From positions 19,007 through 83,006 of the IMG/VR virus record IMGVR_UViG_3300029571_000007: a stretch of DNA of 64,000 bases; one strand, written 5' to 3'. Source of the stretch: a virus (taxonomy: Duplodnaviria > Heunggongvirae > Uroviricota > Caudoviricetes). The translations under genes and the position numbers were made by a program. Shown here piece by piece: positions 5,527-30,376 of this stretch (position 1 is its first letter; every line of letters starts with the position of its first letter). Under the pieces are notes generated by a model. The model was not told the origin of the DNA and did no database searches. It saw only the letters and a program-made list of their open reading frames with translations.

Positions 5527-5554
5527 GTGGAAGAGTACCACCCATTATTTTTAC
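5527..5554 (+). terminator. Hairpin GGGTGG-AAGAGTA-CCACCC followed by ATTATTTTT (terminator-like on plus strand only)
   Basis: Seen in sequence; T-run is on plus-strand side, so it would stop antisense/rightward transcription, not the leftward genes. Confidence 0.3.
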
Positions 5555-6027
5555 AGAATAACTTCTGTTTCACCTTCAAACTTAGTATTTAAAGCACGAA
5601 TCTCAGCAAGTTTTTTACCAATTTCTTCCTGAATCTTAGTAGCGAAAAGTTCAACCTTTGCCTTACCAATCTTTTCGACACTATCAAAAGGCGCTTTAAC
5701 TTCTGATTCTGGAATCTTTGTAACATCTACAGAGAATGTAATATGAAGATTTTCATCTACAACAAATGACTGGTTAATAATATCTTTTAACTCAACAGAA
5801 ATAATAGTTGAATCATCAACTTCACTATCAGTTGTAACTGGATCTCCATTAGAATCAGCTTTCATATTAGATTTAAAGGATATCTTAGAATATTCGATTG
5901 TTCTAACAAAATTATGCAACATATCTTTTTCAGTAGCAGCATCGGTATCTGATGTACCTAATTCTGCGACAGAAATATCTACACTAATAACGTTTTCATC
6001 AATAGTTTTACTAATATTTAATTTCAT
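5551..6027 (-). CDS. Hypothetical phage protein (158 aa, acidic)
   Basis: ORF track; overlaps upstream gene by 4 nt (ATGA), translational coupling. Confidence 0.6.
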   Translation of the reverse strand: MKLNISKTIDENVISVDISVAELGTSDTDAATEKDMLHNFVRTIEYSKISFKSNMKADSNGDPVTTDSEVDDSTIISVELKDIINQSFVVDENLHITFSVDVTKIPESEVKAPFDSVEKIGKAKVELFATKIQEEIGKKLAEIRALNTKFEGETEVIL

Positions 6028-6320
6028 GAATTTGTACCCTCGCTTTCGTTTGCAATTACTTGTTTATATCCGTCTCTAATAGCCATAAATAAATCACGCA
6101 ATACTTCTTTATCAATAGAGCAATCTAAATTTGACGTATCAAACTGTGGATCACTTACTGAAAAATCTAATGTTCCGTCATTCCGTGGCACGAACAAAAT
6201 TTCCACGTTATTGTTCAAGAGTAAAGTAATAGAATCTATTTTTTCACCATTGTTGGATGTAACTTTACGAACCTGTCCAACTTTTAATGGCTCTTGCTCA
6301 ATAATCAATCTACTTGCCAT
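6024..6320 (-). CDS. Hypothetical phage protein (98 aa)
   Basis: ORF track; SD-like AAGGAG upstream of ATG at 6320. Confidence 0.55.
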   Translation of the reverse strand: MASRLIIEQEPLKVGQVRKVTSNNGEKIDSITLLLNNNVEILFVPRNDGTLDFSVSDPQFDTSNLDCSIDKEVLRDLFMAIRDGYKQVIANESEGTNS

Positions 6321-6369
6321 AATACATACTCCTTTCTTTTATTTTTCGTTTTCCTTTTAATCATTGAAT

Positions 6370-6441
6370 TGCGGAAGCAGGACTCGAACCTGCATACTCT
6401 TGGTTATGAGCCAAGTGAGCTTCCATTGCTCGTCATTCCGC
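6370..6441 (-). tRNA. tRNA with anticodon CAT (Met or lysidine-Ile), atypical
   Basis: Perfect anticodon arm CTTGG-CTCATAA-CCAAG; T-arm GCAGG-TTCGAGT-CCTGC; D-stem GAGC/GCTC; but only 6 clean acceptor bp and a 3-nt linker before the D-stem, so possibly unusual or a pseudogene. Confidence 0.55.
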
Positions 6442-7277
6442 TATGATAATCAGCATAAAGCACTAACTAGCTGATATTGGACTGTACACATCCAGTTTAT
6501 AAATTAGACACACTAGGTATCCATGCTTTTCAAAATCACTTTAATCAGATTTACTCGCTAACTAACGCACGAGAAGGAGATTACTACCTGTGTCACCCAA
6601 AATATATTGCACTTATATAGTGACACTCCATATTTATCTGTCTTTCCAGATGTCAGACCGCCCAGTAGTCATTCGCTATTGTCTATCTCAAAAATTCAGA
6701 AAAGAAACTAGCGATAATTTCATTTCATATAAAAGCCTAATAGACATTGGTTTTTAATATTTAGACCACAAGCTCGAAAGACACTGTAGTACAAACTTGA
6801 ATTTAATGGTTCTCATTAACGCAGAGAAGCACGATCACTTCTATGGTTGATATTGACCGTTTTAGGACTTACAATGCTATATGAATAGTAAATGCCAAAA
6901 TATGTTAATCGTCTACTAAGGCAAGACCTCTCCATAACACCGCCAATAAGCAGTAGCAGTGGGAAGTTTTAGACCATTCCAAAGGTCAATAATTTCGCAA
7001 ACCGACCTTTATATTTATGTCACATATCGGTCAGTGACAGCTCACTTGTAAAAATCTATCAACGGATTGATAGACCGCCCTCACTTCTTTTGGATGTGAG
7101 CAGCTTATTTAACTTATCTATGATGGGCGGTGTATCCATCATCTCAGATACTCCGAAGAGTGTGTAGAGAACCATTTTCTACCTATAGATAAGTTGTTGT
7201 ATTTATTTATTCTTTTGTTTTAAGAATGCATATTTTTGAATTTGTCAAGGGTTAGATGAAAGCTTCATCGGGATTGT

Positions 7278-8312
7278 CTACAAATCAGAGAGTGATTTTT
7301 GTTCTACTTGTTTAATTTCTCCATCTGCAAAATATTTTGCGAATTGCTCATCTGCATCAATGTCCTTGTACACTGAAACCATATCAAGGGAACTCCAACC
7401 TACTAGCATTTGAATTACATCATCAGGAAGACCACTTCGAGAACAAGAAGTTGTAAAGAAGTGACGAAGACTGTGGAAATAAAAGTCTTCTCCTAAATGT
7501 TTGGTGAATGTATCAGCCCAACTGTCAAGAGTGCTTGAATCCATAGGTTCATCTATATATTCTCCATTTACTTTCTTTGGAAATAACCATTCTGATTCAA
7601 TTCCGTGTTCTTTTCTATAATTCATCCACAAATCAAAATATGGCTTAAACGGTTTTGCAAGTGTATACACCACTAACATTTTTCCACGAGATCCTCTTCC
7701 TTTTGTTTGGATTTTTTCAGGTGTCTTATATAAAGAACCATATATAATATTTTCGTCATCAAAATAAGACACTTTGAATCGTGGTAATTCACTCTTACGT
7801 CTACCGCTAAATGCAGCTAATGCTAAAATACAAGCCTTGTCATACTTGCCTTTTTCAACCCAATAATCAAGCATTCCCTGTACTTGCTCATCAGATAATA
7901 CAGTTTTAGTAAATACTTTCTCATTTGCAGGATTTTCAATTTTGCGTATAATTGGTTTAAAATTTTCATACTCATCATCCAATATAGCTTCTACATAATT
8001 TGAAAGCGATGAGAGAGTAGATTTTACTCTACGCATTCTAGCTGGCGACCATTTATATTCAGTAAGGCAAAAACTCTGATAACGAGCAATATCCCTCTTA
8101 GATAAATCAATAAAGAATTTGTTGTCACAATGCTTAAGTAGATAAACCCAAAAAATAAAAAGGTCACGCCTATACGCATTAATTGTATTCGGAGATCTAT
8201 CCACTGAACGAAGATAATCCAAAAAGTCATTTCCTAATTCTATATTTTCTTTATTACACTGAGTCAATAACTCATCGGTAACAATATTATTGTGTTGTAT
8301 TTTTCTACCCAT
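7278..8312 (-). CDS. int: Tyrosine-type site-specific recombinase / integrase
   Basis: 344 aa; C-terminal catalytic signature HSLRHFFTT...VGWSSLDMVSVYKD (R..HxxR..Y); N-terminal SAM-like domain. Confidence 0.8.
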   Translation of the reverse strand: MGRKIQHNNIVTDELLTQCNKENIELGNDFLDYLRSVDRSPNTINAYRRDLFIFWVYLLKHCDNKFFIDLSKRDIARYQSFCLTEYKWSPARMRRVKSTLSSLSNYVEAILDDEYENFKPIIRKIENPANEKVFTKTVLSDEQVQGMLDYWVEKGKYDKACILALAAFSGRRKSELPRFKVSYFDDENIIYGSLYKTPEKIQTKGRGSRGKMLVVYTLAKPFKPYFDLWMNYRKEHGIESEWLFPKKVNGEYIDEPMDSSTLDSWADTFTKHLGEDFYFHSLRHFFTTSCSRSGLPDDVIQMLVGWSSLDMVSVYKDIDADEQFAKYFADGEIKQVEQKSLSDL

Positions 8313-8341
8313 AAAATCTCACTTCCTTTCAAACAAAAAGA

Positions 8342-8383
8342 AGCAGTAGTATCATTAACTAACCGCTTCTTGTCGCATTTTTA
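8342..8383 (-). terminator. Rho-independent terminator between tRNA-Tyr and integrase (minus strand)
   Basis: Minus-strand hairpin AAGAAGCGGT..ACTGCTTCTT followed by TTTGTTTG. Confidence 0.4.
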
Positions 8384-8477
8384 TATATTCATCATAAATC
8401 CCATAATCAGCTATGCCACTAATCATGAGAACATATATTTATTCTCTGTTTCCATTCACAGAAAACATTAAATTAGT

Positions 8478-8556
8478 GGGTAGGGTTGGACTCGAACCAA
8501 CGAAGCCGAAGCGCCTGATTTACAGTCAGGTGTAATTGCCGCTATACGACCTACCC
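8478..8556 (-). tRNA. tRNA-Tyr (anticodon GTA), long variable arm
   Basis: Acceptor GGGTAGG/CCTACCC, anticodon arm CCTGA-CTGTAAA-TCAGG, T-arm GTTGG-TTCGAGT-CCAAC; coordinates +/-2. Confidence 0.75.
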
Positions 8557-8599
8557 ATACAAAAAGAGCGTGCAACATACGCCACACACTCCAAATAAT

Positions 8600-9196
8600 C
8601 TAAAATCCAAAAGCCTTTAACATCTTCTGAATATCTTCATGACTTAACTCATTGCTAGAGTAGTAAGAATAACTCATATAAGAGTCGCCATCTGATCTAC
8701 TAGCAGTAAATCCGTGAGTATTTCCATCTTCGTCTTCAGAAGTATGTAAATAAGTTTCATCATGCGCAGGACAGTTTTCACAATCACCATCGCAATCATC
8801 ATATTCATTGCCAATTCCTACTTCATATACCTCATCAGCTTCAATCTTTGGAATAATCTTGGAATTACAATCATCAAAGATGTATACAACATCGGCTTCA
8901 ATAAAGATGTATCCATTATCTCTCTTAACTGGTTCGCACCAGATTTCATCATCTAATAAGCTAATAACGAAAGCATCGTCATACCCATCCCATTCTGGAT
9001 TACCAAACTTATCAATAAATGCAATACCGTATCCAATTCCAATAAGTTCACGAATAATCTCTTTTGCATCTTCATATTTAGCAACAACGTCTATTGAGTT
9101 GTATTTGTCATCAGATTTTATTCTGTCGTATGTATTTGAAACAACACAAGCAAAATCTTCATAGTCTTCAAAATGTAATGTTTTTATAATAATCAC
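8600..9196 (-). CDS. Hypothetical acidic protein (198 aa)
   Basis: ORF track; strand-consistent; opposite-strand ORFs 8762..8956 and 8808..9164 judged spurious. Confidence 0.6.
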   Translation of the reverse strand: MIIIKTLHFEDYEDFACVVSNTYDRIKSDDKYNSIDVVAKYEDAKEIIRELIGIGYGIAFIDKFGNPEWDGYDDAFVISLLDDEIWCEPVKRDNGYIFIEADVVYIFDDCNSKIIPKIEADEVYEVGIGNEYDDCDGDCENCPAHDETYLHTSEDEDGNTHGFTASRSDGDSYMSYSYYSSNELSHEDIQKMLKAFGF

Positions 9197-9207
9197 AACC
9201 TTTCAAA

Positions 9208-9492
9208 TTAAGCGTTCTTTACGGCATCTTTAAGTGCCTTACCTGCTTTAAACTTAGGTGCTTTTGAAGCTTCTATGTGAAGTGACTCACCTGTAAGTGG
9301 GTTTCTACCTTCTCTAGCAGCTCTTTCAACTACTTCAAATGTACCAAAACCAACTAACTGAACCTTGCCACCTGCTATAAGTTCATCAGTTATTGATTTT
9401 ATTACACCATCAACAATAGTAGTTAAATCCTTCTTTGATACATTTATATCAATATTTTCCTGTGTCTTTGCAACTAATTCTGTCTTATTCAT
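9208..9492 (-). CDS. HU/IHF-family histone-like DNA-binding protein
   Basis: 94 aa; GFGTFEVVERAAREGRNPLTGESLHIEASKAPKFKAGKALKDAV matches HU-family signature arm. Confidence 0.85.
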   Translation of the reverse strand: MNKTELVAKTQENIDINVSKKDLTTIVDGVIKSITDELIAGGKVQLVGFGTFEVVERAAREGRNPLTGESLHIEASKAPKFKAGKALKDAVKNA

Positions 9493-9600
9493 AAAAAAAA
9501 TCTCCTTTTAATCTATAATGTTTTTGCACTTTTAATATAATAAATGCTGATTTAATAAAAGAGGGTAGTAGTCAATACGATCTACTCCCTCAAAAAAATC

Positions 9601-10656
9601 TTATTCAACCCAAAGCTGAACCTTATCAATATATCTACCAAAACAACCAGCATATCCGTCCTGTCCATTTACAGTTTGATCATCTATCTGAACAGGGTAA
9701 TATTCGTCCATACCCTGTGGCGATACCTGTATATATAGACACTTGTATTCATAACCATCAGGTGTATAGAATACTGCTTTTAATGCGTCAATAGGTGTTC
9801 TACCGTTACCTGCGTAACCATTTTCGTCATCATTAATGTCATAGCCATCAACTTCTGGAAGCCAATCGCCGTTAAGTAAGTGAACCTGATATCTTACATA
9901 ACCTTCACTAACACCAATGGCAATACCTGTAATTGCCTGATCATCACTAGCACCAGCCCAATCATCTCTATCATGAACTTCATCCCACCAACGATTATTT
10001 GACTTAGCCCTATAATAAACATCAACATGACCTAAATCATTAGTTCTACCACCTGTAGTTTCATTATTATCCGAACTATCATTGTCAGAACAATCTTCAC
10101 TTGAATCTTCTGATACTACTTCGCCTGTTAAGGCTTCGACTATAGCATTCGCACAGGCTTCAGCATCCCATCTGTTAGCATCGTCTCTATCATCCACGAA
10201 GCAACATTCAATTAAGATAGCAGGGGCTTTTGTGTTTCTAAGAACATAAAGTCCTGAATTGGTTTTAAATCCTCTGTTCCTAATATTAAGTTTTTCTGAA
10301 ATTGCCTCACAAATCTTCGAACCAATTTCTTCTGTTCCAGTGTCATATCCGTAAACTTCTGTACCACCAGTAGAATCATCGCCTTCGTAATCATCTCTAC
10401 CAGAGTTAAGATGTATAGATATATCTAAATCAACATTATGTGAATTACATTTAGCAACAATCGCTGCTAAACAACCATTCTGTGACGTGTTTTCATCACA
10501 CGTACAATCATAAACTGTATGTCCAAGTGCTTCTAACTTTGCAATTACAGCATTCTTGACGATTCTGTCTTCAACAGACTCCTGTAAAATACCAACTGCA
10601 CCATAAGCACCCTGATCCTGTGGACAGTGACCTGCATGTACATTATATGTAGCCAT
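9601..10656 (-). CDS. Endolysin: N-acetylmuramoyl-L-alanine amidase (amidase_3-like) with C-terminal wall-binding region
   Basis: N-terminal HAGHCPQDQGA...SIHLNSG...LIECCFVDD resembles amidase_3; 351 aa; lysis-module position upstream of packaging genes. Confidence 0.75.
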   Translation of the reverse strand: MATYNVHAGHCPQDQGAYGAVGILQESVEDRIVKNAVIAKLEALGHTVYDCTCDENTSQNGCLAAIVAKCNSHNVDLDISIHLNSGRDDYEGDDSTGGTEVYGYDTGTEEIGSKICEAISEKLNIRNRGFKTNSGLYVLRNTKAPAILIECCFVDDRDDANRWDAEACANAIVEALTGEVVSEDSSEDCSDNDSSDNNETTGGRTNDLGHVDVYYRAKSNNRWWDEVHDRDDWAGASDDQAITGIAIGVSEGYVRYQVHLLNGDWLPEVDGYDINDDENGYAGNGRTPIDALKAVFYTPDGYEYKCLYIQVSPQGMDEYYPVQIDDQTVNGQDGYAGCFGRYIDKVQLWVE

Positions 10657-10733
10657 TTTATATTCCTCCTATACAAAATAAATAAAAATAAAAGAGGGTA
10701 GTATAAAACTATCCTCATAAGAACAAAATATAA

Positions 10734-11969
10734 TTAACTAAGCTGAATATCTTTTATCATTTCAACTTCGTTATCTTTTAAAATTGCTATTGTTTGAGAT
10801 GCTACACTACTGCAATAAAAATTTTTGGAAAAATCATTGAATCCGCTTAAGCAGCCTGTAGATATAGCATATCTACCATGATTTTCTGACTGAATGGAAA
10901 AATTGTGGAGATGTCCACTAAAGATTAAATCATAGAACTGATTATCACTAGAAATAATTTTTGCAAGATTATATCTATCATTTTTATATTTATCACCATG
11001 AATAAATTTACAAGATAAACCACAAACAGTAATATTTATCTCAGAATCATTATAATTTGTATCTAATATAGAAATGCGTTCACAGCCACTTACATCAACC
11101 AAATCTTTAATATGTTCAGTAATAAGCACATTTGCGTTGTCGCCCTCATAATTCTTTTTCTTGTCACCTGACATACGATCATGATTTCCAGCAATACCAC
11201 CAAATACAACATTGCAATCTTCAGCTAAAGCGACTAATAATCTATATATTAGTTTAGTAGCCTTATGTATCTGCATAGATTGTAAAAATTCACAATTATG
11301 TGCTTGTGTTTCTCTCATATATGAATTCTCGATCATATCACCTGTTGATATAACCAGAACCTGACGGATATTATATAATTCAATATACTTCTTACATTCA
11401 GAAATATATTTATCTATTCTTTCATTAGCAATTTCCCAATTAAAATTATTACCATTACAATTGTTAATTATATAGCCAATATGCCAATCAGTAATATGAC
11501 ATATCATAGTGTAATCAGATTCTTCTTCAACAGAAGAGTACATATATGTAGGAATTTCCATTGAGAAATTATTATCTTTCATATATTGTTTTAATTCATC
11601 AGCAACAGTAATGCAAGGAACTAAATCTCGTTTAAGTTTATTAAGTTTCAATCTATCATTATGTATTTGCTGTTTAACAATATATTGTTCACCTAGTACT
11701 TCTTTAGCATCATCAAGAGTACTACTTTTTTCTGTTATGTTTTTAGCTTTTAAATATTCTCTAACAAAATAATTGCCAAATATGGTCTGACTAGCCTTTC
11801 TAACGCTATCATAATGACATTTTATATCATATTTATCTACAATTTCTTTCCAATCTATATCTGAAATACCAGACATTTTATTCGAAATTTCTTGTAAAAC
11901 CTGTTCATAAGTTGATGGGGTTAGCCCATATTTTTTTAATTCTTCTTCGAAATTATAAATATAGTTCAC
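10734..11969 (-). CDS. Calcineurin-like metallophosphoesterase
   Basis: Motifs ITDWHIG (DxH), TGDMIEN (GD), GNHD (GNHD/E); 411 aa. Confidence 0.6.
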   Translation of the reverse strand: MNYIYNFEEELKKYGLTPSTYEQVLQEISNKMSGISDIDWKEIVDKYDIKCHYDSVRKASQTIFGNYFVREYLKAKNITEKSSTLDDAKEVLGEQYIVKQQIHNDRLKLNKLKRDLVPCITVADELKQYMKDNNFSMEIPTYMYSSVEEESDYTMICHITDWHIGYIINNCNGNNFNWEIANERIDKYISECKKYIELYNIRQVLVISTGDMIENSYMRETQAHNCEFLQSMQIHKATKLIYRLLVALAEDCNVVFGGIAGNHDRMSGDKKKNYEGDNANVLITEHIKDLVDVSGCERISILDTNYNDSEINITVCGLSCKFIHGDKYKNDRYNLAKIISSDNQFYDLIFSGHLHNFSIQSENHGRYAISTGCLSGFNDFSKNFYCSSVASQTIAILKDNEVEMIKDIQLS

Positions 11970-11976
11970 CTACTCT

Positions 11977-12183
11977 CTATTCTTCATTAGATTCAACAGG
12001 TTCATCGAGTTCACTTTCCTCTTTTACCTTCACATTTATTTCAACACTACCACCATTAAATACTGATAGAAGAGTAGCAAGTTTCTTTTCTCCACCATCT
12101 ACTTCAACAGTCATATTATCTGTGTCAATGATACCTGCAATCTTCATTGCGGTTGTCTCGGTACGTTTATAAACAAAATTCAT
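11977..12183 (-). CDS. Hypothetical protein (68 aa)
   Basis: ORF track; 4-nt overlap with upstream gene. Confidence 0.5.
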   Translation of the reverse strand: MNFVYKRTETTAMKIAGIIDTDNMTVEVDGGEKKLATLLSVFNGGSVEINVKVKEESELDEPVESNEE

Positions 12184-13100
12184 AAATTTAGCTCCTTTTT
12201 TAATATTTCTTCTATATTTTCATAATCCCAATACCAAATTTCCAACAATTGAATATTATGTTTTTTGGCATACTTACGTTTTCGCATATCATGTTCTTGT
12301 TGGATTTGATATTTCTTTTTACTTTGTATTCTTGCTTTGCCGTCATGGAATTCACCTTGATATTCAATTAAAAGATTGTATTGAGGCAAATAAAAATCAT
12401 ATGATAATAAGCCGTTATTAACACCTAACAAATTGTCATAATTCTGTTGTGGTATATAATCTATATTGTTATTATAAAGCAATTGTCTAATTTTTTGTTC
12501 GCCTTTTGATTCATTACAAAATGGGCATCTTTGACCACGCAAAAAATTATTTGCAATCATTTTAAAAGAATTATTACATTTTTTATGTAGAAATAGAATT
12601 TTATTAGAAGATTTTGTATATTCCGACAAAACTTTGTAATCTTCTCCATACGGACAAGTATTTACTTTTTCAATAAATTCTTCAGTTGTATAATGATATG
12701 TTTTTTTACATACAGGACAACCATGCCCATGTAATATACTTGAAGCGATTGGACTCCATTTATATCCACATATTCTACAATGAACATCTATTGGATTTAA
12801 CGCACCTGTATATGTGCCATCTACTATTATATCTTCGTTATCAAATTCTCTTTTAAATTGAGCATCAGTTTTTCCTCTTGCTTGTCTTATTGCACAAGGT
12901 TTATGAATGCGTCCCATTAGTAAATATGATGGAGTGGTTTCAAAAGTTTGTCCACATATTTTACACATACATAGTATTTTATTTTTTGAACCAGTATAAG
13001 ACCCTAATATTTCCACTGGCATATTTAATTTTGAATATTCTTCAATAAATTCTTCATGTGTTTTCTTTTTAGGCATTTTGTAACATCTCCTTCGTAACAT
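12180..13100 (-). CDS. Multi-zinc-ribbon protein with C-terminal endonuclease-like (DUF559/PD-(D/E)xK-like) domain; possible homing endonuclease
   Basis: Four CxxC pairs; C-terminal YDFYLPQYNLLIEYQGEFHDG resembles restriction-endonuclease-like fold proteins. Confidence 0.4.
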   Translation of the reverse strand: MLRRRCYKMPKKKTHEEFIEEYSKLNMPVEILGSYTGSKNKILCMCKICGQTFETTPSYLLMGRIHKPCAIRQARGKTDAQFKREFDNEDIIVDGTYTGALNPIDVHCRICGYKWSPIASSILHGHGCPVCKKTYHYTTEEFIEKVNTCPYGEDYKVLSEYTKSSNKILFLHKKCNNSFKMIANNFLRGQRCPFCNESKGEQKIRQLLYNNNIDYIPQQNYDNLLGVNNGLLSYDFYLPQYNLLIEYQGEFHDGKARIQSKKKYQIQQEHDMRKRKYAKKHNIQLLEIWYWDYENIEEILKKELNL

Positions 13101-13103
13101 AAT

Positions 13104-13319
13104 TTAAAAAATTAGATATGTCTCTTTATCTATCCTCCAATTTCCTAAATTTTTATTAAGCAACTCATTTTTCTCAAATAAAAATACCAAAAATCCTTTT
13201 GACTTCTGGTCTGTATCTATTCTTTTAAGTTGTGAGCCATTGTCAATAAGGTAATTTGCTAATCGTTTGCTTTTGCATACAAACAAAATATTTTCCTCCA
13301 TAAAATTAAAAATTCCCAC
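13104..13319 (-). CDS. Hypothetical protein (71 aa)
   Basis: ORF track. Confidence 0.45.
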   Translation of the reverse strand: MGIFNFMEENILFVCKSKRLANYLIDNGSQLKRIDTDQKSKGFLVFLFEKNELLNKNLGNWRIDKETYLIF

Positions 13320-13626
13320 CAGAACGCTTTCTGCCAGGATTGTAATACATTTGTTTACTTTTATTCTGCTTTACTTTAATATACTCACGAATCTTCCTAA
13401 TATAATTTTCATCATAGCTTAATCTAGCATGTGATTCTAAATAATAACACCCACAACGAGTAGGAATTTTATTTGATAATACATTGTCTATAAGCTTATA
13501 CGATGGATTAAGATTTGAAAGATGAGTATGTTTTTCTGTGTCATCTTTTCTGCATATACGATAGCCGTTTTCAGTCTTGTCAATATAAAAATCTTTATAT
13601 TCTATTCGATTTTTCATAGCCAGCAC
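13306..13626 (-). CDS. Hypothetical protein (106 aa), Cys/His-containing
   Basis: ORF track; a further ~55-aa GTG-started ORF lies at ~13628..13795 (-). Confidence 0.5.
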   Translation of the reverse strand: MLAMKNRIEYKDFYIDKTENGYRICRKDDTEKHTHLSNLNPSYKLIDNVLSNKIPTRCGCYYLESHARLSYDENYIRKIREYIKVKQNKSKQMYYNPGRKRSGGNF

Positions 13627-13827
13627 CTACTTGACGAATTTATCTTCGATGTAACGCTTTCCACTACAAGTCTTGTAATAACCTATGTGTTCGCCTCTAC
13701 GATCTACATATCCTCGTCTTGTGTTTCTGATTACACCTTCAGATAATAATTTTTCAATTTCACTTTTAGAAATCTGTTTAATAATTTTCACATCCTTTGA
13801 TTTATTTCCTACAAAGTAGGATAGTAG

Positions 13828-13902
13828 TTGGAAATGTAGGATTTGAACCTGCGACCTCTTGATCCCAAATCAAGCGTTCTAGCCAAGCTGAACTAATTCC
13901 CA
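13828..13902 (-). tRNA. tRNA-Pro (anticodon TGG)
   Basis: Full cloverleaf: U8, D-stem GTTC/GAAC, anticodon arm CTTGA-TTTGGGA-TCAAG with U33 and G37, T-loop TTCAAAT; U1-A72 first pair. Confidence 0.75.
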
Positions 13903-14791
13903 AAATAAAAAATCCCATACCGAAGTATGAGATCCTTACTTAATATGAGCTGAGATATTTGACTCAATACACTAACATCTACTGTGGTTGGACACAGTTT
14001 ATCACACAAGCGATTAACTTGTAGTTAGCAACAACACCGATTTTGACATAATCGGCAAACTCTTACCACAAAGTATTATAGATTTTCTTTCTGCACATTC
14101 TTCCTTGCGAGATTCATAGGTTGCAGCCTATTAGAGTTGTACGTACTTGTACTTTCTCATATAGTACCTTGCGAGTGCTATATGTCACCATATTACAGAT
14201 GAATAAGTTGTTTGTCTCTTTGCGGTTATACACACTTTTGCTTGTTCTTTTCTATCAGTAAATCAAATAATATTTTTATTATTAAGGAATTCTGTTCATT
14301 CACCAAAAGTATGTACTTACAAATGGACGATGAGGTGTATATTTGACCATCAGTACCTTTTGAGTACCACCCAATCATCACCATCCTGCTCGGATTGCGA
14401 TCTCCTTGCTTTTTGATTCCATCCCTGTTTTTCAACTTAAGAGATATTATCAAAATCCTATCAACAGTTATACTTGCGGTATTCCCGTCAATAGTACACA
14501 AATCATCCCCACATTTCTGTGTTAATACAGTGCCTATTTCGAGACACCCACCAAATCAATTTGTTTAAGAATCTCATGCAATGCAATTGATTACATAAAC
14601 TCATAAATAGTCATTATCAGTTGACCTCTGACCTTAGATATGGCGTAGATTTTATGTGTTTTCCGTTAAACTGTATTATACAGTCGCAGCCTTATAATAC
14701 GATAAGAACCACTTTATACGTGTCGCCACGCTTATTTTAAGATTCAACATCCTCCGATCCGAAACCGACCAGTCCTATAAAAATAGGATAA

Positions 14792-14863
14792 CTCCCACAA
14801 CAGGATTCGAACCTGTAACTTACGAATTAACAGTTCGTTGCTCTACCATTGAACTATATGGGA
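14792..14863 (-). tRNA. tRNA-Asn (anticodon GTT)
   Basis: D-arm TAGTTCAATGGTAGAGCA, anticodon arm ACGAA-CTGTTAA-TTCGT, T-arm ACAGG-TTCGAAT-CCTGT; U1-A72. Confidence 0.8.
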
Positions 14864-14992
14864 AGAGTATCAGTGATTACACGATTTTTTAAATAATGCA
14901 ACCACCGATATAAGAAAGAGAGGTTAATTTATAAAATAAACTTTTAATATTATGTAATGCCACATAGGGCAGGATATTAAGAAAAGCTGATT

Positions 14993-25108: not shown

Positions 25109-25480
25109 TTATTTTTCTCTTTCTAAAACAACATAATTAGCAAATGGATCATCAATATAAAACACAGGTAACTTATTATGATATTTTTCATATATTTCTT
25201 CATCTGATATAAATACACAAAATTTACTATCACCTTGTCTTTCTTTTCTTAGTTGTTCTAGTTCAGTTTCATATTTTCCATTTTTGACTGAACCTATTTT
25301 TCCACAAATAGTACAATATCCAGTTAATCTTGTATGTCTATTTGTTTTTCCAACAAATGTCGAATTATATTGAATCAAGCATTCTTCATATTGATGTTTG
25401 TGTTTGGACTTATGATTGCTTTTTGAGATATTGCTTTTCTTAGATTTTTTATATTTGGGTATTTCATGTTCTTGTATCAT
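25109..25480 (-). CDS. Hypothetical Zn-ribbon protein (123 aa), Lys/Ser-rich N-terminus
   Basis: ORF track; CTICGK motif; outermost leftward gene next to the strand-switch region. Confidence 0.45.
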   Translation of the reverse strand: MIQEHEIPKYKKSKKSNISKSNHKSKHKHQYEECLIQYNSTFVGKTNRHTRLTGYCTICGKIGSVKNGKYETELEQLRKERQGDSKFCVFISDEEIYEKYHNKLPVFYIDDPFANYVVLEREK

Positions 25481-26898
25481 AGATTACTCCTTTGATATAT
25501 TATTCTCTCTTCAATTGTCTACCTAGAGATGTTCTTTTCCTGCTAACGCTGCGAAAAGACCGCCCTTATCAAAGGGCTACATCTTGTGCTTACGCACATA
25601 CTATATCTTTTTTGAGCTTGTATATAGTTTTCTCATACCCCTATCTGTGGGTTTAAAATGAGTTTTTGAGAGTAATTTTCAATTTTTATGTCTTAAGTGA
25701 TAACTTATAAGGGTATGAGATAAAAGTGGCTAATTTTTCTGTGAGGTGTGATTTTCTCCCTAAATAGATTAAGATGCAATTTTATCCGCTAATAAATTTA
25801 TTAATTTTTGTTTGATGAGAGTGGTGTGATGATTATTCACAATAGATTATTCTCTTATATGAATTTAAAATTATGAATTTTTAGTATTGTATGAATATGT
25901 TAATTAACAAAGAGAGTTAATGTAAAATTCTTTACATTGGATATAAGGCGAAAAATTAATGATTTAGAGTCTATTTTGGATTTTTATATGTCAGGTGGTT
26001 AGTTGTTAGGGTAGAGGATAAAAATTGAAATTTGAGCTGTGAGAGTGGATTTTTGTATAGGCGTGAGAATTGACAATATTATTTATAGTAAATGTATGTG
26101 AATGTATATAGATAGTTAATGTAATTTTGGGTGATGTAAAAAATTGACCTTGTATTTTGAGCATTTGGGTGGGAAAAAATGATTTTAGGTGTTATTGGTA
26201 GGGTAAAATGAAAACGCTGTGTATTGGCGAGATGGAGGGTTTAGATGAGAAATGAGATTCTTTAGTATTGTTATAGTGGGATTTTTTGATGGTTTGTATT
26301 ATATTTTTGGTTGTTTTTGTGATGCATATAGGCGATTTTTTGGGTTTTCTGGTGTGGTTTTTATGCACCCCCTTGTATTGTAGATGAGAGAGTTGTGATT
26401 TGTGTGATTAATTATTAATGATAGATTTTGGATTAAAAATGATTATCGGTAAAAGTACTTATAAATAAGGAAGATTTTGGATTTGTGAATGAATTTTTGA
26501 TAAGATGGAAGTTTAATTTTTGGGTTGTAAAGTGAATGAAAGTGGCTTGATTAGTGGGTTTGAGCGATATGGGGTACGATATGGGGTTGGGATGGGAAGA
26601 ATTGGGATTTTGCTTGATTTTAGTGGAGATTTTGAATATTGGGGAAGGGTTAGATTTTTGAGTTGGTGTGTAGAATAACCAGCTAAGTGGATGCTGCCAA
26701 AATGCGACTATCATTTTGGTTTTAAATACCCCCAACATATAAAAACAATGGCTAATAGATATATATTAACCATTATTTTTACTGATACTTTTGAGCAGAT
26801 TCGATGTAGTTTTTAAAACTATGTCATATGGTTTGATTTGCTATATGATATCATTTTGATATCGTTTAAAAAAGATTTAAAATATTATAAATAATCTA

Positions 26899-26927
26899 TT
26901 GACAATGACAATAAATAGTGATAACAT
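26899..26927 (+). promoter_or_regulatory. Promoter P1 with embedded imperfect palindrome
   Basis: TTGACA (26899-26904), 17-nt spacer atgacaataaatagtga, TG-extended -10 TAACAT. Confidence 0.55.
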
Positions 26928-26978
26928 ACGATACAACAACAGATAAACAATTTGATTTAAAAAAATTCAAATAATCTG

Positions 26979-27007
26979 TTGACAATCACAATTAATTGTG
27001 ATAAGAT
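26979..27007 (+). promoter_or_regulatory. Promoter P2 with perfect 16-bp palindrome TCACAATTAATTGTGA in spacer
   Basis: TTGACA, 17-nt spacer, TG-extended -10 TAAGAT; palindrome 26986-27001. Confidence 0.6.
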
Positions 27008-27076
27008 ATAGCCAAGTTAAGAAAGTACTGTAAAACGAACCTTCCTCGTAAGGTCGGGAAAACTTAACACAACATA

Positions 27077-27105
27077 TTGACAAACACAATACATTGTGAT
27101 ATACT
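27077..27105 (+). promoter_or_regulatory. Promoter P3 with CACAATACATTGTG palindrome in spacer
   Basis: TTGACA, 17-nt spacer, TG-extended -10 TATACT. Confidence 0.6.
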
Positions 27106-27987
27106 ACAATCACAATAAAACAACAGCTTGACAAGGAATAAGTCATTAAAACCAGAATAGGAGGTGCCATATTTGAAAAGTGAATAATATTCCAAAAGGG
27201 TACAGTGTACCCAATGGGTATTATGGCTATATTTCAGCCACAAAAAGTTATATGCTTTTTGCGACTGAACAAGAATATCTTGAATATATAGCCGACTAAT
27301 TACAAGTAATTGTGTAAATAGTCCCTGAACAAGTCTATTTTATCACGATTCAGTGTATTAGTAAATCCCCATAGGAAAAAACAATTTTATATTTCTTATA
27401 TAGGCACTGTATTTATTCCCTGGAATAGATACAAAAGACTATAGTAGGATATAAGATTCTAAGGTTGTATCTCAATGAGTTTAACCTTATACAAATTGAA
27501 TAATAGGTTTTATGGGTTTACTCTAAAATCCTATGAGGACGGCTCAAATTGTACTTTGAAATAGGTGCATAAGCCCGAAGATTAACAATCTTCGCATCAT
27601 ATTAAAGTGGTGTGCCTTTACCCTGCCAATAATGGGAGGAAGATGTCAGAAAAGACATAAGGCTCAAGTGCGAACCCTTCAGCTTATATTCCAGGGTGTG
27701 AGTGTTTACAAGGTAGTAGTTGACGGTCAATAAAAAATCTTAACCGATTAAATCACGGTTAAAGTTGTGAAGTCGATAACCAAGCTGATAGCAACTAAAA
27801 TATAAAAGGTTAATGATAGATATAACATAGTTTGCAGGGTAAAACCTACAAGCATTTATTTATTAGCAGGGTAATGCCTACAATAAGTATACTTATGGAG
27901 TATCTATCCTCTTAACTGGATTTAATGTTAATATGCTCATTACGCTAGTAGGTGAGGCGTTCCCTACAAAGTTTTATACATAGTTAG

Positions 27988-28024
27988 AAGGGTGGACTAT
28001 ACACAATTAGTCTACCCTTTTATA
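27988..28024 (+). terminator. Rho-independent terminator
   Basis: 10-bp stem GGGTGGACTA/TAGTCTACCC, 8-nt loop, followed by TTTTAT; closes the ORF-free transcribed stretch before gene 28106. Confidence 0.75.
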
Positions 28025-28105
28025 GTGTGCATAACACTACAATTATAAATACAATAAAAATATTATATTGCACCGATTGCGTTAAGTCGGGGAAAGAGGT
28101 ATATT

Positions 28106-28945
28106 ATGAGAACTTTGTCAATCAATTTTTACGCAGAAAAAATCACGGATGAGAAGAAGCAGGAATTAATGACAGCAGTTGAACATGAAAAGTGTGCAAT
28201 GCTCATTCAGATGGCTGAAGCTGATATTTCACGGTTAAACACTCAGATAGCAAACCTTGAGAAAAATGAGGATATGTCTGAGGATAAAAAGAAGGTTAAG
28301 CTTGATGACCTTAACCAGAAACTTGAGGATGTTAAGCAGGAAAAGTCTGACCTTGAAACATCTAAAGAAGAAACTCTTGAGGTTTACAATAAGGTATTTG
28401 CTTCATTGACCAATAAGAACAAAGACCATTTTGGCAATAATAAGGACGTAGTCCGTACAGTTCTTAGGGTGCTTGCTTCATGGGATAACTCTAAATTGGT
28501 AAAATATGCAATCATTCCTGCTTTTCAGTCACCAGAATTATATAATGCTTTAGAGGCAATTCATATTAATTCTAAGGCAGGAGAAAATGGCAATATAACA
28601 ATGTCAAATGAAGTAAAAGAAGCATACAAGAAAGCAAGTACAGAACTTGAAACAATCATTAAGACAACCTTCAGTCTGCCTTTTGAAACTCCATACACAG
28701 CAAAGACAAGAGTTAAATTAACAGCAGAGGACAAGAAACTTCTTAATGATTGCTATGTAAAGGGGTTCTCTAACAAATTTGATATTGATGATAAGAAGGA
28801 CACTATATCCTTCAAAGAGCGTCAGATTAATACATTAGTAAAGGCAAAAAAGAATCGTAAGACAGGCAAGATGGAATATGATTATTCTGGACTTGCAAGC
28901 ACTATTAGCAATATTGTAATTAAGCACTACTTTGCAGAAAAGTAA
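28106..28945 (+). CDS. Hypothetical coiled-coil protein (279 aa)
   Basis: ORF track; GGGGAAAGAGG SD; first rightward gene. Confidence 0.65.
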   Translation: MRTLSINFYAEKITDEKKQELMTAVEHEKCAMLIQMAEADISRLNTQIANLEKNEDMSEDKKKVKLDDLNQKLEDVKQEKSDLETSKEETLEVYNKVFASLTNKNKDHFGNNKDVVRTVLRVLASWDNSKLVKYAIIPAFQSPELYNALEAIHINSKAGENGNITMSNEVKEAYKKASTELETIIKTTFSLPFETPYTAKTRVKLTAEDKKLLNDCYVKGFSNKFDIDDKKDTISFKERQINTLVKAKKNRKTGKMEYDYSGLASTISNIVIKHYFAEK

Positions 28946-29073
28946 TAAAAATCTATAGTTAGAGGCGGTAAGAGAAACTTTACCGCTTTTATAGTGTGGA
29001 TTTTACACATATTGAAAATTACAAAATAATGTGATAGAATAGGAGGTGCTAATAATTGATGGAGGTATAATAT

Positions 29074-29352
29074 ATGATAGTTTTTAATAAATTAGGGCAA
29101 CTTTTAAAAATACGCAATATGACATGGAAAGACTTATGTAATGCAGGTTTGTCTCAAAATATGCCAACAAGATTTTCAAAAAACGAAAATATAAGTTCTG
29201 ATACAATAAATAAAGTATGTGAATATCTTTGTGTCCAACCATTTGAAATCATGGAATGGATTCCAGATGCGGAATGGAATGCAAAAGAAATTGAGAAACA
29301 AGCTATTGAAGCTCAAATAGCCGAGCTTCAGGCAAAATTAAATCAGATGTAA
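29074..29352 (+). CDS. HTH (XRE/Cro-like) DNA-binding protein
   Basis: 92 aa; LLKIRNMTWKDLCNAGLSQNMPTRF helix-turn-helix pattern. Confidence 0.5.
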   Translation: MIVFNKLGQLLKIRNMTWKDLCNAGLSQNMPTRFSKNENISSDTINKVCEYLCVQPFEIMEWIPDAEWNAKEIEKQAIEAQIAELQAKLNQM

Positions 29353-29720
29353 AAAGGAGGAATTATTATGCCATCAATCGAAGATATGCGTAACTCTATG
29401 CTCAAAGCAAATGTTTACACAAAAGCGGATATAGATAAGATCTGCGAACTTGAAAAGGCATATCAAGAAGAATGCCAGGAGATAGCCGAACAATGCGAAG
29501 CTGAAGGCTATCCATCGCACGGAAGTAACTATGAACTTCGTTAATATTATAATGAGCAAATTGCAGACATAGACGCAAATTATAGTTTTGAAGACTAACT
29601 GCGTCAAATATAATAGCAACATCCACTAAGTACCCAAACGCAAAGGGTGCTATTTTTGACTTGACAAATACAACAAATTTGATGTATTATAGGTGTATAA
29701 ACAAAGGAGAAAATAAAAAT

Positions 29721-30056
29721 ATGACACGAACCTTTATTGAAACACCAATTTTTACCGCTAAATGGCAAGATTTAGGATTAACTGATAAAAATTTAAAAGA
29801 CTTACAAGAAATTTTATTAGAAAATCCGAAATTAGGAGATACTATTTCTCATACAGGTGGATTAAGAAAAATCCGTATCCCAATGGAGAATAAAGGAAAA
29901 GGGAAACGAAGTGGTGCAAGAGTAATTTATGTAGATGTTGATATAAAAGAAACTGTATATCTTGTCAATGTCTACTCAAAAGATGAAAAGGCAGACTTAA
30001 CACCTGATGAAAAGAAAGCTCTAAAGGCAGTAGTAAAAATTTTAAAGGAGGAATAA
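29721..30056 (+). CDS. HigB/Gp49-like RelE-superfamily toxin (addiction-module killer)
   Basis: ORF track 29661..30056, likely start MTRTF at 29721; conserved GGLRKIRI...GKRSGARVIY...VYSKDEKADLT pattern of phage Gp49/HigB family. Confidence 0.65.
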   Translation: MTRTFIETPIFTAKWQDLGLTDKNLKDLQEILLENPKLGDTISHTGGLRKIRIPMENKGKGKRSGARVIYVDVDIKETVYLVNVYSKDEKADLTPDEKKALKAVVKILKEE

Positions 30057-30058
30057 TC

Positions 30059-30376
30059 ATGAGCAAATTTTTTGATGATACAATGCAAGGGTTATTAGAA
30101 GCTGTTGCAATCGACCAAAAGCAAATTGCAGTTCGAGAAGTAAGTGGTTTACCAGCCACTACTTTTCGTGCAGAGGATATAGAGAACAACTTAATTGATA
30201 ATGTTGTTAAATTACGGAAAGAGTCTAATATTTCTCAAAAGGAATTAGCCGATTTAACGGAAAGCAAACAGCAAAGTATCTCACGGTTTGAAAAGAAAAC
30301 ACATAGTCCATCATTAGTTTTATTTGTGAAAATTATTGATGCACTTGGTTATAAAATGGAACTTGTAAAAAAATAA
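30059..30376 (+). CDS. HigA-like antitoxin (XRE-family HTH, C-terminal)
   Basis: 2-nt gap after toxin gene; HTH at C-terminus ISQKELADLTESKQQSISRFEK; toxin-first order typical of HigBA. Confidence 0.6.
   Translation: MSKFFDDTMQGLLEAVAIDQKQIAVREVSGLPATTFRAEDIENNLIDNVVKLRKESNISQKELADLTESKQQSISRFEKKTHSPSLVLFVKIIDALGYKMELVKK

What the first reader, a model, noticed from the sequence alone, without database searches (positions are those of the whole stretch)
26890..27110. Three tandem near-consensus promoters, each with a CACAAT-N4-ATTGTG palindromic operator in the spacer
P1, P2 and P3 are ~80 bp apart and nearly identical: aatct(a/g)TTGACA - 17 nt - gTGaTA(a/t)(c/g/a)(a/c)T. The 17-nt spacer contains an inverted repeat: a perfect 16-bp palindrome TCACAATTAATTGTGA in P2, and near-perfect versions in P1 and P3. 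The palindrome overlaps the -35/-10 interval, the classic position for a repressor that occludes RNAP.

A triplicated, strong, operator-bearing promoter at the start of the rightward block looks like a tightly controlled early or immediate-early switch. Candidate regulators in the window are the XRE proteins at 29074 and 55872.
Basis: seen in the sequence. Interest (0 to 1): 0.55.

Follow-up and report, generated by a model that had tools for sequence, protein, structure and literature searches.

The report
Repressor-gated tandem phage promoters driving RNA
Three strong back-to-back promoters of a gut-bacterial phage each carry a binding site for a small phage repressor encoded 2 kb downstream. 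What they transcribe first is a tiny gene followed by a large, conserved, folded RNA that matches no catalogued RNA family.

Summary
The three promoters are real: TTGACA, a 17-nt spacer, a TG-extended -10, at 26899, 26979 and 27077. Each spacer holds an inverted repeat, but the spacing is CACAAT-N2-ATTGTG (equally CACAA-N4-TTGTG), not the N4 written. A fourth family member (29012-29040) drives the XRE gene at 29074.

In about 80 related phage loci the layout recurs: 2-5 tandem promoters with palindromic spacers. The half-site changes with the recognition helix of the syntenic XRE protein, and the same palindrome sits in that protein's own promoter. Phages whose intervening gene is 93-99% identical carry different XRE/operator pairs.

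So the operator reading is supported by comparison, with XRE92 (29074) as the cognate, autoregulated repressor. The XRE at 55872 is not supported.

The promoters lead to a 39-codon ORF and then a roughly 720-nt ORF-free stretch (27300-28023) that ends in a terminator before the next gene. Sequence islands and helices with compensatory changes are conserved across all lineages, and Rfam 15 has no match.

Relatives add LexA boxes upstream of the array. An integrase in the window and a hit inside a Lachnospiraceae MAG contig suggest a temperate phage. No transcription or binding data exist.

The parts
26899..26927 (+). Promoter P1: TTGACA, 17 nt, TAACAT, with TG at 26919-26920. The degenerate operator O1 is GACAATAAATAGTG at 26907-26920 (2 mismatches).
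   Evidence: Relatives have better versions of the same site: GACAATAGATTGTG and CACAATAAATAGTG.
26979..27007 (+). Promoter P2: TTGACA, 17 nt, TAAGAT. Operator O2 is the perfect 16-bp palindrome TCACAATTAATTGTGA at 26986-27001.
27077..27105 (+). Promoter P3: TTGACA, 17 nt, TATACT (11 of 12 consensus matches, TG-extended). Operator O3 is CACAATACATTGTG at 27085-27098.
27159..27299 (+). Ribosome-binding site AGGAGGTG (27159-27166) and a small ORF (27180-27299, GTG start, 39 codons: MNNIPKGYSVPNGYYGYISATKSYMLFATEQEYLEYIAD).
   Evidence: Close relatives have an ATG start and an in-frame 3-nt indel. Related small peptides occupy the same position in distant lineages. No Pfam or PHROG family matches.
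27300..28023 (+). Roughly 720-nt ORF-free conserved structured RNA candidate. Features:
- first hairpin 27300-27317 (GUAA loop);
- covariance-model core 27615-27711;
- invariant island TATATTCCAGG at 27685-27695;
- two GUAA-loop hairpins at 27831-27851 and 27863-27883;
- intrinsic-terminator-like hairpin 27990-28017 followed by TTTTAT.
   Evidence: Conserved islands. Helices with compensatory changes and controls. One covariance-model hit in each of 65 of the 82 sources searched, all on the + strand, none on the - strand. MFE z-score -6.3 on + against -2.7 on -. No Rfam match.
28106..28945 (+). gp279, a conserved protein of unknown function lying between the RNA and the XRE gene. It was used as the anchor for finding related loci.
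28965..28990 (+). Second terminator-like hairpin (GCGGTAA/TTACCGC) plus a T-run. It has the same conserved flanks as the RNA terminator (ATAGTTAGA upstream, TTTTATAGTGTG downstream).
29012..29040 (+). Promoter P4: TTGAAA, 17 nt, TAGAAT (TG-extended). The degenerate operator O4 is TACAAAATAATGTG at 29020-29033.
   Evidence: The equivalent site is a perfect palindrome in other lineages: L087 TCACAAAATATTGTGA, L095 TCACAAAACATTGTGA, L110 TCACAATTTATTGTGA.
29074..29352 (+). XRE92, a 92-aa Cro/C1-type HTH protein. The predicted recognition helix is SQNMPTRFSKN (about residues 27-38) and there is a long C-terminal helix (65-90). It is the proposed operator-binding repressor.
   Evidence: Pfam HTH_26, 39.9 bits against a cut-off of 22. 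PDB 3tyr, E = 1e-4. Secondary structure from a low-confidence model. Covariation with the operators.

Best explanation
P1, P2 and P3 are strong host-RNA-polymerase (sigma-A type) promoters at the head of the rightward early region of a roughly 150-kb, probably temperate, Lachnospiraceae phage.

Each spacer holds a dyad operator: half-sites CACAA and TTGTG, centres about one helical turn apart, spanning roughly -30 to -15. The 92-aa phage protein XRE92 (29074-29352) is inferred to bind it as a dimer and so exclude RNA polymerase. XRE92 has an HTH_26 domain plus a C-terminal helix that I infer mediates dimerisation.

XRE92 lies downstream of two terminators and has its own weaker promoter, P4, which carries a related operator. 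It would therefore limit its own synthesis. It would either shut off the early promoters after infection or hold them silent in a lysogen.

With no repressor bound, the array first transcribes a 39-codon ORF and a roughly 720-nt highly structured RNA that ends at an intrinsic terminator. Read-through would reach gp279, XRE92 and the rest of the block.

What is shown here: the sequence features, their conservation, the operator/helix covariation, and the RNA covariation. What is inferred: binding, repression, timing, read-through, and any function of the RNA.
For: Promoter features and excess over chance.

Family-wide architecture: 81 loci, 72 with at least 2 tandem promoters; TTGACA in 171 of 203 promoters; TG-extended in 160 of 203; palindromic spacers in 53% against 5% of shuffles.

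Half-sites track the XRE recognition helix:
- NMP(T/Q)RF goes with CACAA;
- NMPAKF goes with CACAC;
- AANTPQKF goes with CAC(T/C)TT;
- SP(T/S)TMANF goes with CTACAA;
- SPTLIAKF goes with CTACAC;
- GGSTLDHL goes with AACCC;
- GGATIDNL goes with AACCAG.

In most lineages the palindrome lies only in the tandem promoters and the XRE gene's own promoter, apart from isolated extra matches. Own-promoter against tandem-promoter spacer identity exceeds every one of 20000 class permutations.

Module swaps: gp279 is 99% identical while XRE is 42% identical and the operators are CACAA against CTACAC (L095/L098). gp279 is 99% and XRE 84% identical with AACCCC against AACCAG (L079/L085).

XRE92 is an HTH_26 protein with a predicted long C-terminal helix.

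RNA: 40 pairs in 7 helices are 95.9% paired, against 79% for shuffles and 34-46% for slid partners. 26 pairs have compensatory changes against 4-9 in the slid controls. The 5' half adds 19 of 30 pairs with compensatory changes. The covariance model hits once in each of 65 of the 82 sources searched, all on the + strand, and after realignment all 12 pairs of helices 1 and 2 covary.

Temperate lifestyle: integrase; a homologous locus inside a 378-kb Lachnospiraceae MAG contig; LexA boxes upstream of the array in 31 relatives.
Against: - There are no transcription or binding data of any kind.
- The right arm (TTGTGA) overlaps the Gram-positive TRTG/TGn extended -10 element, so part of its conservation may be due to the promoter itself.
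- O1 and O4 are degenerate in this window.
- Some lineages show no clear palindrome in the XRE gene's own promoter (CTACAA class) or no clear dyad at all (SPSMTAKFTKN class).
- A repressor gene that is co-directional and 2 kb downstream of its target promoters is not the usual immunity layout.
- XRE92 has no autocleavage domain, so the route to induction is unknown.
- The structure model of XRE92 has low confidence (pLDDT 61).
- The helix/operator correlation comes from related genomes, so shared ancestry is reduced by the module-swap analysis but not removed.
Confidence: 0.72

Rival explanations
1. The palindromes are by-products with no repressor. A strong promoter was duplicated, and the right arm is simply the TRTG/TGn extended -10 element.
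For: TGTGATA coincides with the extended -10 element, and TG is present in 160 of 203 family promoters. P1 and P2 are clear duplicates (84% over 55 nt).
Against: The left arm has no known promoter role. Other lineages have unrelated dyads in the same place, including ones without TG (CTACAA-N4-TTGTAG directly abutting the -10; AACCAGCAAACTGGTT). The dyad recurs in the separate XRE promoter about 2.3 kb away and changes together with the XRE helix.
Confidence: 0.08
2. The dyads are operators, but for a different protein. Candidates are the XRE at 55872, the HigA-like HTH at 30059, or a host factor.
For: The window encodes other HTH proteins. Lambda-type switches use two proteins on the same operators.
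Against: The 55872 protein is an 88-aa XRE divergent from a MazF-like gene. Its helix (VTYPTIDKIYKG) is unlike XRE92's, with 30% identity overall. The RelE/HTH pair is absent from most relatives, while XRE92 is syntenic in every locus searched except two (L062, which ends just after gp279, and L106). A host factor could not explain lineage-specific half-sites that co-vary with a phage protein.
Confidence: 0.1
3. XRE92 binds the dyads but activates or remodels the promoters (MerR-like spacer binding) rather than repressing them.
For: MerR-family activators bind dyads inside promoter spacers (established knowledge).
Against: The spacers are the optimal 17 bp, not the 19-20 bp of MerR-type promoters. 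The hexamers are already near consensus. XRE92 is HTH_26, not MerR.
Confidence: 0.04
4. The conserved 720-nt stretch downstream is a DNA element (replication origin or partition site) rather than an RNA. The promoters would serve it by transcriptional activation, or simply read through it.
For: It lies in a 2.6-kb gap next to leftward ParB-like and replication-initiator-like genes. In lactococcal phage c2 an early-promoter transcript primes replication at the origin (recalled from memory, not checked here).
Against: Helices keep pairing through compensatory changes and G-U pairs. The + strand folds 34 kcal/mol better than the - strand. The element is bracketed by promoters and an intrinsic terminator on the same strand. 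An RNA that acts at an origin is not excluded.
Confidence: 0.12

Closest known systems
Lambdoid immunity operators, in particular phage 434 (operator ACAA-N6-TTGT; recalled from memory)
   Same: A dyad operator overlaps the -35/-10 of strong early promoters. It is recognised by a small Cro/C1-type HTH dimer. The half-site contains ACAA. There are several operators of graded quality, and the regulator controls its own synthesis.
   Different: The spacing is 2 bp shorter (ACAA-N4-TTGT). The operators sit one per promoter in a tandem array, not as a tripartite OR between divergent PR and PRM. The repressor gene is co-directional and 2 kb downstream. No second antagonistic repressor was identified. 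There is no S24 cleavage domain.
Heteroimmune P2 / P2 Hy dis / W-phi phages (PMC1904268)
   Same: Near-identical phages carry diverged repressors (43-63% identity) with matching diverged operators at the early promoter. Here gp279 is 93-99% identical while XRE is 40-84% identical.
   Different: The P2-type operators are direct repeats bound by the C repressor at convergent Pe/Pc promoters. Here they are inverted repeats inside the spacers of 2-5 tandem promoters, with at least ten specificities visible.
Tandem early promoters of lytic and temperate phages: T7 A1/A2/A3 (textbook) and GIL01 P1-P2 with LexA dinBoxes (PMC4551915)
   Same: Several strong host-polymerase promoters stand in tandem at the head of the early region. 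In GIL01 host LexA binds boxes at P1. Relatives of this phage carry LexA boxes in an upstream promoter of the array.
   Different: The T7 A promoters carry no operator. GIL01 relies on LexA plus gp7. This window has lost the LexA boxes at the array and relies on phage-specific dyads.
Large phage-associated ornate RNAs GOLLD and ROOL (PMC12286853)
   Same: A large (several hundred nt), highly structured, phage or prophage-borne RNA of Firmicutes with no known function.
   Different: No covariance-model match to any of 4227 Rfam 15 families, for the window or for 8 divergent relatives. It is not next to the tRNA cluster. It is expressed from repressor-gated tandem promoters behind a small ORF.

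Membership tests
Sigma-70/sigma-A housekeeping promoter | -35 TTGACA and a -10 of the form TAnnnT, separated by 17 +/- 1 bp | tested here: met
   P1-P3 have a perfect TTGACA and a 17-nt spacer, scoring 10-11 of 12. This is conserved in relatives: TTGACA in 171 of 203 promoters.
Sigma-70/sigma-A housekeeping promoter | Extended -10 (TGn, or TRTG in Firmicutes) | tested here: met
   TG is present before the -10 in P1-P4 and in 160 of 203 family promoters.
Sigma-70/sigma-A housekeeping promoter | Transcription starts about 7 nt downstream of the -10 | not testable with these tools
   No transcript data are available.
XRE / Cro-C1-type HTH regulator (Pfam HTH_26) | Domain match above the curated threshold | tested here: met
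   PF13443, 39.9 bits against a cut-off of 22, residues 6-65. PDB 3tyr, a transcriptional regulator, E = 1e-4.
XRE / Cro-C1-type HTH regulator (Pfam HTH_26) | Dimer that binds a dyad-symmetric operator | tested here: inconclusive
   A C-terminal helix at 65-90 is predicted, but the model has low confidence (pLDDT 61). Support is indirect, from helix/half-site covariation.
Lambda-type CI/Cro bistable switch | Divergent promoters sharing a tripartite operator, with the repressor gene adjacent and divergent | tested here: not met
   The XRE92 gene is co-directional, 2 kb downstream, behind two terminators, and has its own promoter.
Lambda-type CI/Cro bistable switch | RecA-sensitive C-terminal S24 peptidase domain in the maintenance repressor | tested here: not met
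   The protein is 92 aa and only HTH_26 was found.
Heteroimmunity module (repressor and operator diverge together) | Operator sequence changes with repressor specificity, independently of the phage backbone | tested here: met
Firmicutes LexA (SOS) box, CGAAC-N4-GTTCG | Box within the promoters of the finding | tested here: not met
   No match with up to 2 mismatches in 25400-27200. Boxes are present just upstream of the array in 31 of 81 relatives, and in another promoter of the window at 57101-57130.
MerR-type spacer-binding activation | Over-long 19-20 bp spacer and a MerR-family regulator | tested here: not met
   The spacers are 17 bp, and the regulator candidate is HTH_26.
Any Rfam 15 RNA family (including GOLLD and ROOL) | Covariance-model match | tested here: not met
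   No hit at gathering threshold or at E up to 10 over 27100-28060. No hit in 8 divergent relatives.

The most novel reading that the evidence does not exclude
The promoter array is the expression platform of a previously unclassified, roughly 0.7-kb, multi-helix RNA. This RNA is the first and probably most abundant early product of a whole family of roughly 150-kb Lachnospiraceae (pro)phages. Its synthesis is gated by a fast-diversifying set of at least ten XRE repressor/operator specificities, plus host LexA in many relatives. On this reading the RNA, not a protein, is the thing the 'switch' chiefly controls.
Probability: 0.5. Interest if true: 0.7.

Novelty: new variant of a known kind. Interest (0 to 1): 0.55.

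Why it matters
1. The family offers a natural series of orthogonal repressor/operator pairs on one constant, near-consensus Firmicutes promoter scaffold. That is a readable specificity code for a small HTH protein. It is also a ready parts list for gene control in Clostridia, where few tools exist.

2. It gives a testable immunity (superinfection-exclusion) map for an abundant group of large Lachnospiraceae phages known so far only from metagenome assemblies.

3. It places a large structured RNA without a family at a defined, strongly promoted, repressor-controlled position in a phage early region. That makes its expression and function directly approachable. The functions of other large phage-borne RNAs such as GOLLD and ROOL are still open.

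Tried and rejected
- The literal motif CACAAT-N4-ATTGTG finds none of the three sites. It was replaced by the N2 spacing.
- My first promoter pattern was mis-registered and found nothing useful.
- A 'fifth operator' at 27301-27314 (TACAAGTAATTGTG) was rejected. It is 100% conserved in close relatives, but other lineages have an unrelated covarying hairpin at the same position (CTAGAT...ATCTAG), so it is the first hairpin of the RNA, with a GUAA loop.
- The XRE at 55872 as regulator was rejected.
- DNA search of 25400-29400 against INPHARED phages: no match. The portal protein reaches only 24.5-29% identity in the listed matches (all below 60%), mostly large Bacillus and Brevibacillus siphoviruses.
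- Rfam at four settings: nothing.
- L001/L030 were assumed identical to the window. They are identical only over about 26600-29600.
- A leftward promoter overlapping P1 (26911-26884, 11 of 12 matches) is conserved only in the closest relatives, so it was not built into the model.
- The viral-contig scan for the double GGGTAA hairpin motif returned mostly chance hits. 27 of 119 also carry the invariant island; several are contigs already fetched, and the rest were not examined for gp279, so they show nothing about the RNA outside this phage family.
- The single-sequence AlphaFold model of XRE92 was too weak (pLDDT 61) for a fold search.
- The supplement of PMC10690425, a catalogue of viral structured-RNA candidates, is not held. 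I could not check whether fragments of this RNA are listed there.
- The small ORF has no Pfam or PHROG family.
Full report
**Observation.** The sequence at 26890-27110 contains three + strand promoters with a perfect TTGACA, a 17-nt spacer and a TG-extended -10:
- P1: -35 26899-26904, -10 TAACAT 26922-26927.
- P2: -35 26979-26984, -10 TAAGAT 27002-27007.
- P3: -35 27077-27082, -10 TATACT 27100-27105.

A 25-nt consensus of the family matches four times in the 64-kb window against 0.01 expected. The fourth match (29012-29040, TTGAAA-17-TAGAAT) lies directly upstream of the XRE ORF at 29074.

The palindrome is real but was miscounted. CACAAT-N4-ATTGTG finds none of the sites. CACAAT-N2-ATTGTG is perfect in P2 and P3 and has two mismatches in P1. 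Written as CACAA-N4-TTGTG with up to 1 mismatch, it occurs three times in the window, all between 26987 and 27314. P1 and P2 are duplicates (84% over 55 nt, 80 bp apart). P3, 98 bp further on, shares only the core.

**Context.** The window is phage DNA: portal, large terminase, 8 tRNAs and a skipping-rope RNA on the - strand.
- Leftward genes end at 25480 and include two ParB-like proteins and a DnaD/replication-initiator-like protein.
- Rightward genes start at 28106.
- The promoters sit inside the 2.6-kb gap between these two blocks.
- Further right are a tyrosine integrase, an 88-aa XRE divergent from a MazF-like gene, and a RelE/HTH pair.
- There is no DNA match to cultured phages. The portal protein is 24.5-29% identical in the listed matches (all below 60%), mostly large Bacillus and Brevibacillus siphoviruses.
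- A homologous locus lies inside a 378-kb Lachnospiraceae MAG contig.

Together with the integrase, this points to a temperate phage of Lachnospiraceae. That is an inference.

**The architecture is family-wide.** gp279 (28106-28945) recovered 29 and then 80 loci from viral contigs of roughly 80-220 kb. In 81 loci that carry the downstream RNA island:
- 72 have 2-5 tandem promoters;
- TTGACA is present in 171 of 203 promoters, and TG in 160 of 203;
- spacings cluster at 79-81, 89-92, 97-100 and 105-109 bp;
- of 88 unique spacers, 53% contain a perfect inverted repeat with arms of at least 5 nt, against 5% of shuffled spacers.

The dyads differ between lineages, for example TCACAC-N4-GTGTGA, TCACTTT-N2-AAGGTGA, CTACAA-N4-TTGTAG, CTACAC-N4-GTGTAG, AACCAGCAAACTGGTT, AACCC-N-GGGTT and ATCA-N7-TGAT. 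Some of these lack the TG element. The conserved property is therefore the dyad in the spacer, not an extended -10.

**The cognate protein.** An XRE92 homolog is syntenic, downstream of gp279, in every locus searched except two (L062, which ends just after gp279, and L106). Its predicted recognition helix sorts with the half-site:

| Recognition helix | Half-site |
|---|---|
| S(Q/V/T)NMP(T/Q)RFS(K/Q)N | CACAA |
| SVNMPAKFSKN | CACAC |
| AANTPQKFSQN | CAC(T/C)TT |
| SP(T/S)TMANFGKN | CTACAA |
| SPTLIAKFQKN | CTACAC |
| GGSTLDHLRKN | AACCC |
| GGATIDNLRIN | AACCAG |

The CACAA class holds even where overall XRE identity is only 53% and gp279 identity 65%.

- In most lineages the dyad is found in only two places, the tandem promoters and the spacer of the XRE gene's own promoter about 2.3 kb away, apart from isolated extra matches (L088 4231, L078 6243); the CTACAA, CTACAC, CACT and ATCA classes show it only in the tandem promoters.
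- Own-promoter and tandem spacers match better within a helix class (12.1 of 17) than between classes (9.6). None of 20000 permutations reached the observed value.
- The link does not depend on the backbone. L095 and L098 have 99% identical gp279 but 42% identical XRE, with CACAA against CTACAC. L079 and L085 have 99% gp279 and 84% XRE, with AACCCC against AACCAG. Four specificities occur among phages with at least 93% identical gp279.

XRE92 is an HTH_26 protein (39.9 bits against a cut-off of 22) with a distant solved relative (3tyr). A single-sequence model gives four short helices plus a long C-terminal helix at 65-90. Its confidence is low, so it was used only for secondary structure.

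The other XRE, at 55872, is unrelated in its helix, belongs to a MazF-like module and is not syntenic.

**What the promoters transcribe.** Downstream of P3 come, in order:
- a strong ribosome-binding site (27159);
- a 39-codon ORF (27180-27299). In relatives it has an ATG start and an in-frame 3-nt indel. In other lineages related or different small peptides take its place;
- about 720 nt with no conserved ORF (27300-28023);
- a 9-bp hairpin followed by TTTTAT (27990-28023);
- gp279, 83 nt further on.

The ORF-free stretch has sequence islands conserved across all lineages. TATWTTCYAGG occurs exactly once in each of 30 non-redundant representatives. Many local helices keep pairing through compensatory changes:

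| Region and alignment | Result |
|---|---|
| 3' core, 14 sequences | 40 pairs in 7 helices; 95.9% paired (shuffles 79%, slid partners 34-46%); 26 pairs with double changes (slid 4-9); covariation score 0.51 (slid 0.04-0.10) |
| 5' half | 19 of 30 pairs with compensatory changes |
| 92-position covariance model, 82 sources, 677 kb, both strands | one hit in each of 65 sources, all on the + strand, including sub-families not used to build it |
| Realigned set, 34 distinct sequences | all 12 pairs of helices 1 and 2 covary |

The + strand folds to -200.6 kcal/mol (z = -6.3) against -166.5 (z = -2.7) for the - strand. No Rfam 15 family matches, in the window or in eight divergent relatives. Where another gene is inserted before gp279, the tandem promoters stay with the RNA.

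The apparent fifth operator at 27301-27314 is the first hairpin of this RNA (UACAA-GUAA-UUGUG). Other lineages have a different covarying hairpin at that position.

**Mechanism proposed.**
- Shown: near-consensus promoters; dyads occupying about -30 to -15; a syntenic HTH protein whose helix co-varies with the dyads and whose own promoter carries the dyad; terminators between the RNA and gp279 and between gp279 and P4.
- Inferred: an XRE92 dimer occludes RNA polymerase at P1-P3 and, more weakly in this clade, at P4. On infection or induction the unrepressed array fires, making the small peptide and large amounts of the RNA, and by read-through gp279 and XRE92. XRE92 then closes the array (Cro-like feedback). 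Alternatively, expressed from autoregulated P4 in a lysogen, it keeps the array closed (CI-like maintenance).

I cannot tell the last two apart.

In 31 of 81 relatives, 1-3 LexA-box-like motifs (GAAC-N4-GTTY) cluster just upstream of the array. Some lie inside the spacer of an extra TTGATA-17-TAAAAT promoter. Only 5 such motifs lie elsewhere in all 81 loci. This argues for SOS input and hence lysogeny in the family.

This window has only a decayed remnant of those boxes at the array. It does have a TTGACA-18-TATAAT promoter with CGAATACATGTTCG in its spacer at 57101-57130.

**Rivals.**
- A by-product of duplication plus the TRTG element does not explain the left arms, the lineage-specific dyads, or the distant matching site.
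- Another binding protein is unlikely, for the synteny and helix reasons given above.
- MerR-like activation is contradicted by the 17-bp spacers.
- A pure DNA element (origin) in place of the RNA is contradicted by the covariation and the strand asymmetry. An RNA that acts at an origin remains possible.

**Comparison with known systems.** The logic is that of lambdoid operators. The phage 434 operator, ACAA-N6-TTGT, is the nearest in sequence (from memory). Here the spacing is 2 bp shorter, the operators are arranged one per tandem promoter, and the repressor gene is co-directional and distal. Repressor and operator co-divergence between near-identical phages is known from P2, P2 Hy dis and W-phi (PMC1904268). 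Tandem early promoters are known from T7 (textbook) and from GIL01, where host LexA binds boxes at P1 (PMC4551915). Large phage-borne structured RNAs of unknown function are known (GOLLD, ROOL; PMC12286853), but this one matches none of them.

**Verdict.** The promoter/operator part is a new variant of a familiar design. The structured RNA it controls appears to be undescribed and is the most interesting element. Everything functional remains to be tested.

Noticed in passing
window 27300-28023 (+): A roughly 720-nt ORF-free, conserved, covariation-supported structured RNA candidate lies between the small ORF and gp279. It has no Rfam family. In relatives some of its hairpins have GAAAA loops that recall lambda boxB.
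   Followed up: yes
window 25700-26750: About 1 kb of non-coding sequence is almost free of C on the + strand (GC skew +0.6 to +0.8). It is 70-80% conserved in close relatives. The skew upstream of the array ranges from -0.4 to +0.6 across the family. It might be a C-rich/G-poor leader of the leftward operon or an origin region.
   Followed up: partly
window 27981-28040 and 28953-29005 (+): Both early terminators share conserved flanks: ATAGTTAGA(A/G)G before the hairpin and TTTTATAGTGTG after it, followed by a small GUGU/ACAC hairpin. TTTATAGTGTG occurs only at these two places in 64 kb and is nearly invariant across the family. Its meaning is unknown (processing site, antitermination signal or phage-specific promoter).
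   Followed up: partly
related loci, e.g. L040 2153, 2205, 2256; L110 2567: In 31 of 81 relatives, 1-3 Firmicutes LexA-box-like motifs (GAAC-N4-GTTY) cluster just upstream of the XRE-operator promoters. Some lie in the spacer of a TTGATA-17-TAAAAT promoter. The window keeps only a decayed remnant near 26795-26816.
   Followed up: partly
window 57080-57130 (+): A TTGACA-18-TATAAT promoter has a near-consensus LexA box (CGAATACATGTTCG, 57108-57121) in its spacer and a second box at 57080-57093. It lies upstream of ORFs 57294-58001 (no family) and 58038-58694 (weak sigma-factor-like PHROG hit, E = 0.006). This may be an SOS-induced function such as an antirepressor.
   Followed up: partly
window 54835-56637: A tyrosine integrase (+), an 88-aa XRE (55875-56138, -) and a MazF-like toxin gene (56287-56637, +) with its own TTGACA-17-TATAAT promoter at 56216.
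   Followed up: partly
window 29661-30376 (+): A RelE-like toxin paired with an HTH_3 antitoxin-like protein (HigBA-type pair). It is present in only some close relatives.
   Followed up: no
window 26884-26911 (-): A leftward promoter-like site, TTGTCA-16-TATAAT (11 of 12 matches), whose -35 overlaps P1 and O1. It is conserved only in the closest relatives.
   Followed up: partly
window 27180-27299 (+); L018, L027, L022 equivalents: A small-peptide family (motif YG.MG(F/Y)(I/V)P...LF..E..Y.E(Y/F)) occupies the first position after the promoters. In L019 and L011 it is replaced by a roughly 30-aa hydrophobic peptide resembling type I toxins.
   Followed up: partly
window 5109-14864 (-) and 7114-7192 (-): Eight tRNA genes and a skipping-rope RNA (67 bits) lie among the structural genes.
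   Followed up: no
L097 5558-5626 (+): A near-threshold match to the F. prausnitzii HDV-like ribozyme family (42.1 bits against a gathering score of 44).
   Followed up: no
window 61470-62858 (+): A transposase-like ORF (PHROG transposase, E = 7e-35) sits inside the phage.
   Followed up: no
window 11676-11689: A perfect 14-bp palindrome, AACAATATATTGTT, resembles the operator core but lies inside a coding region. It is probably chance.
   Followed up: no
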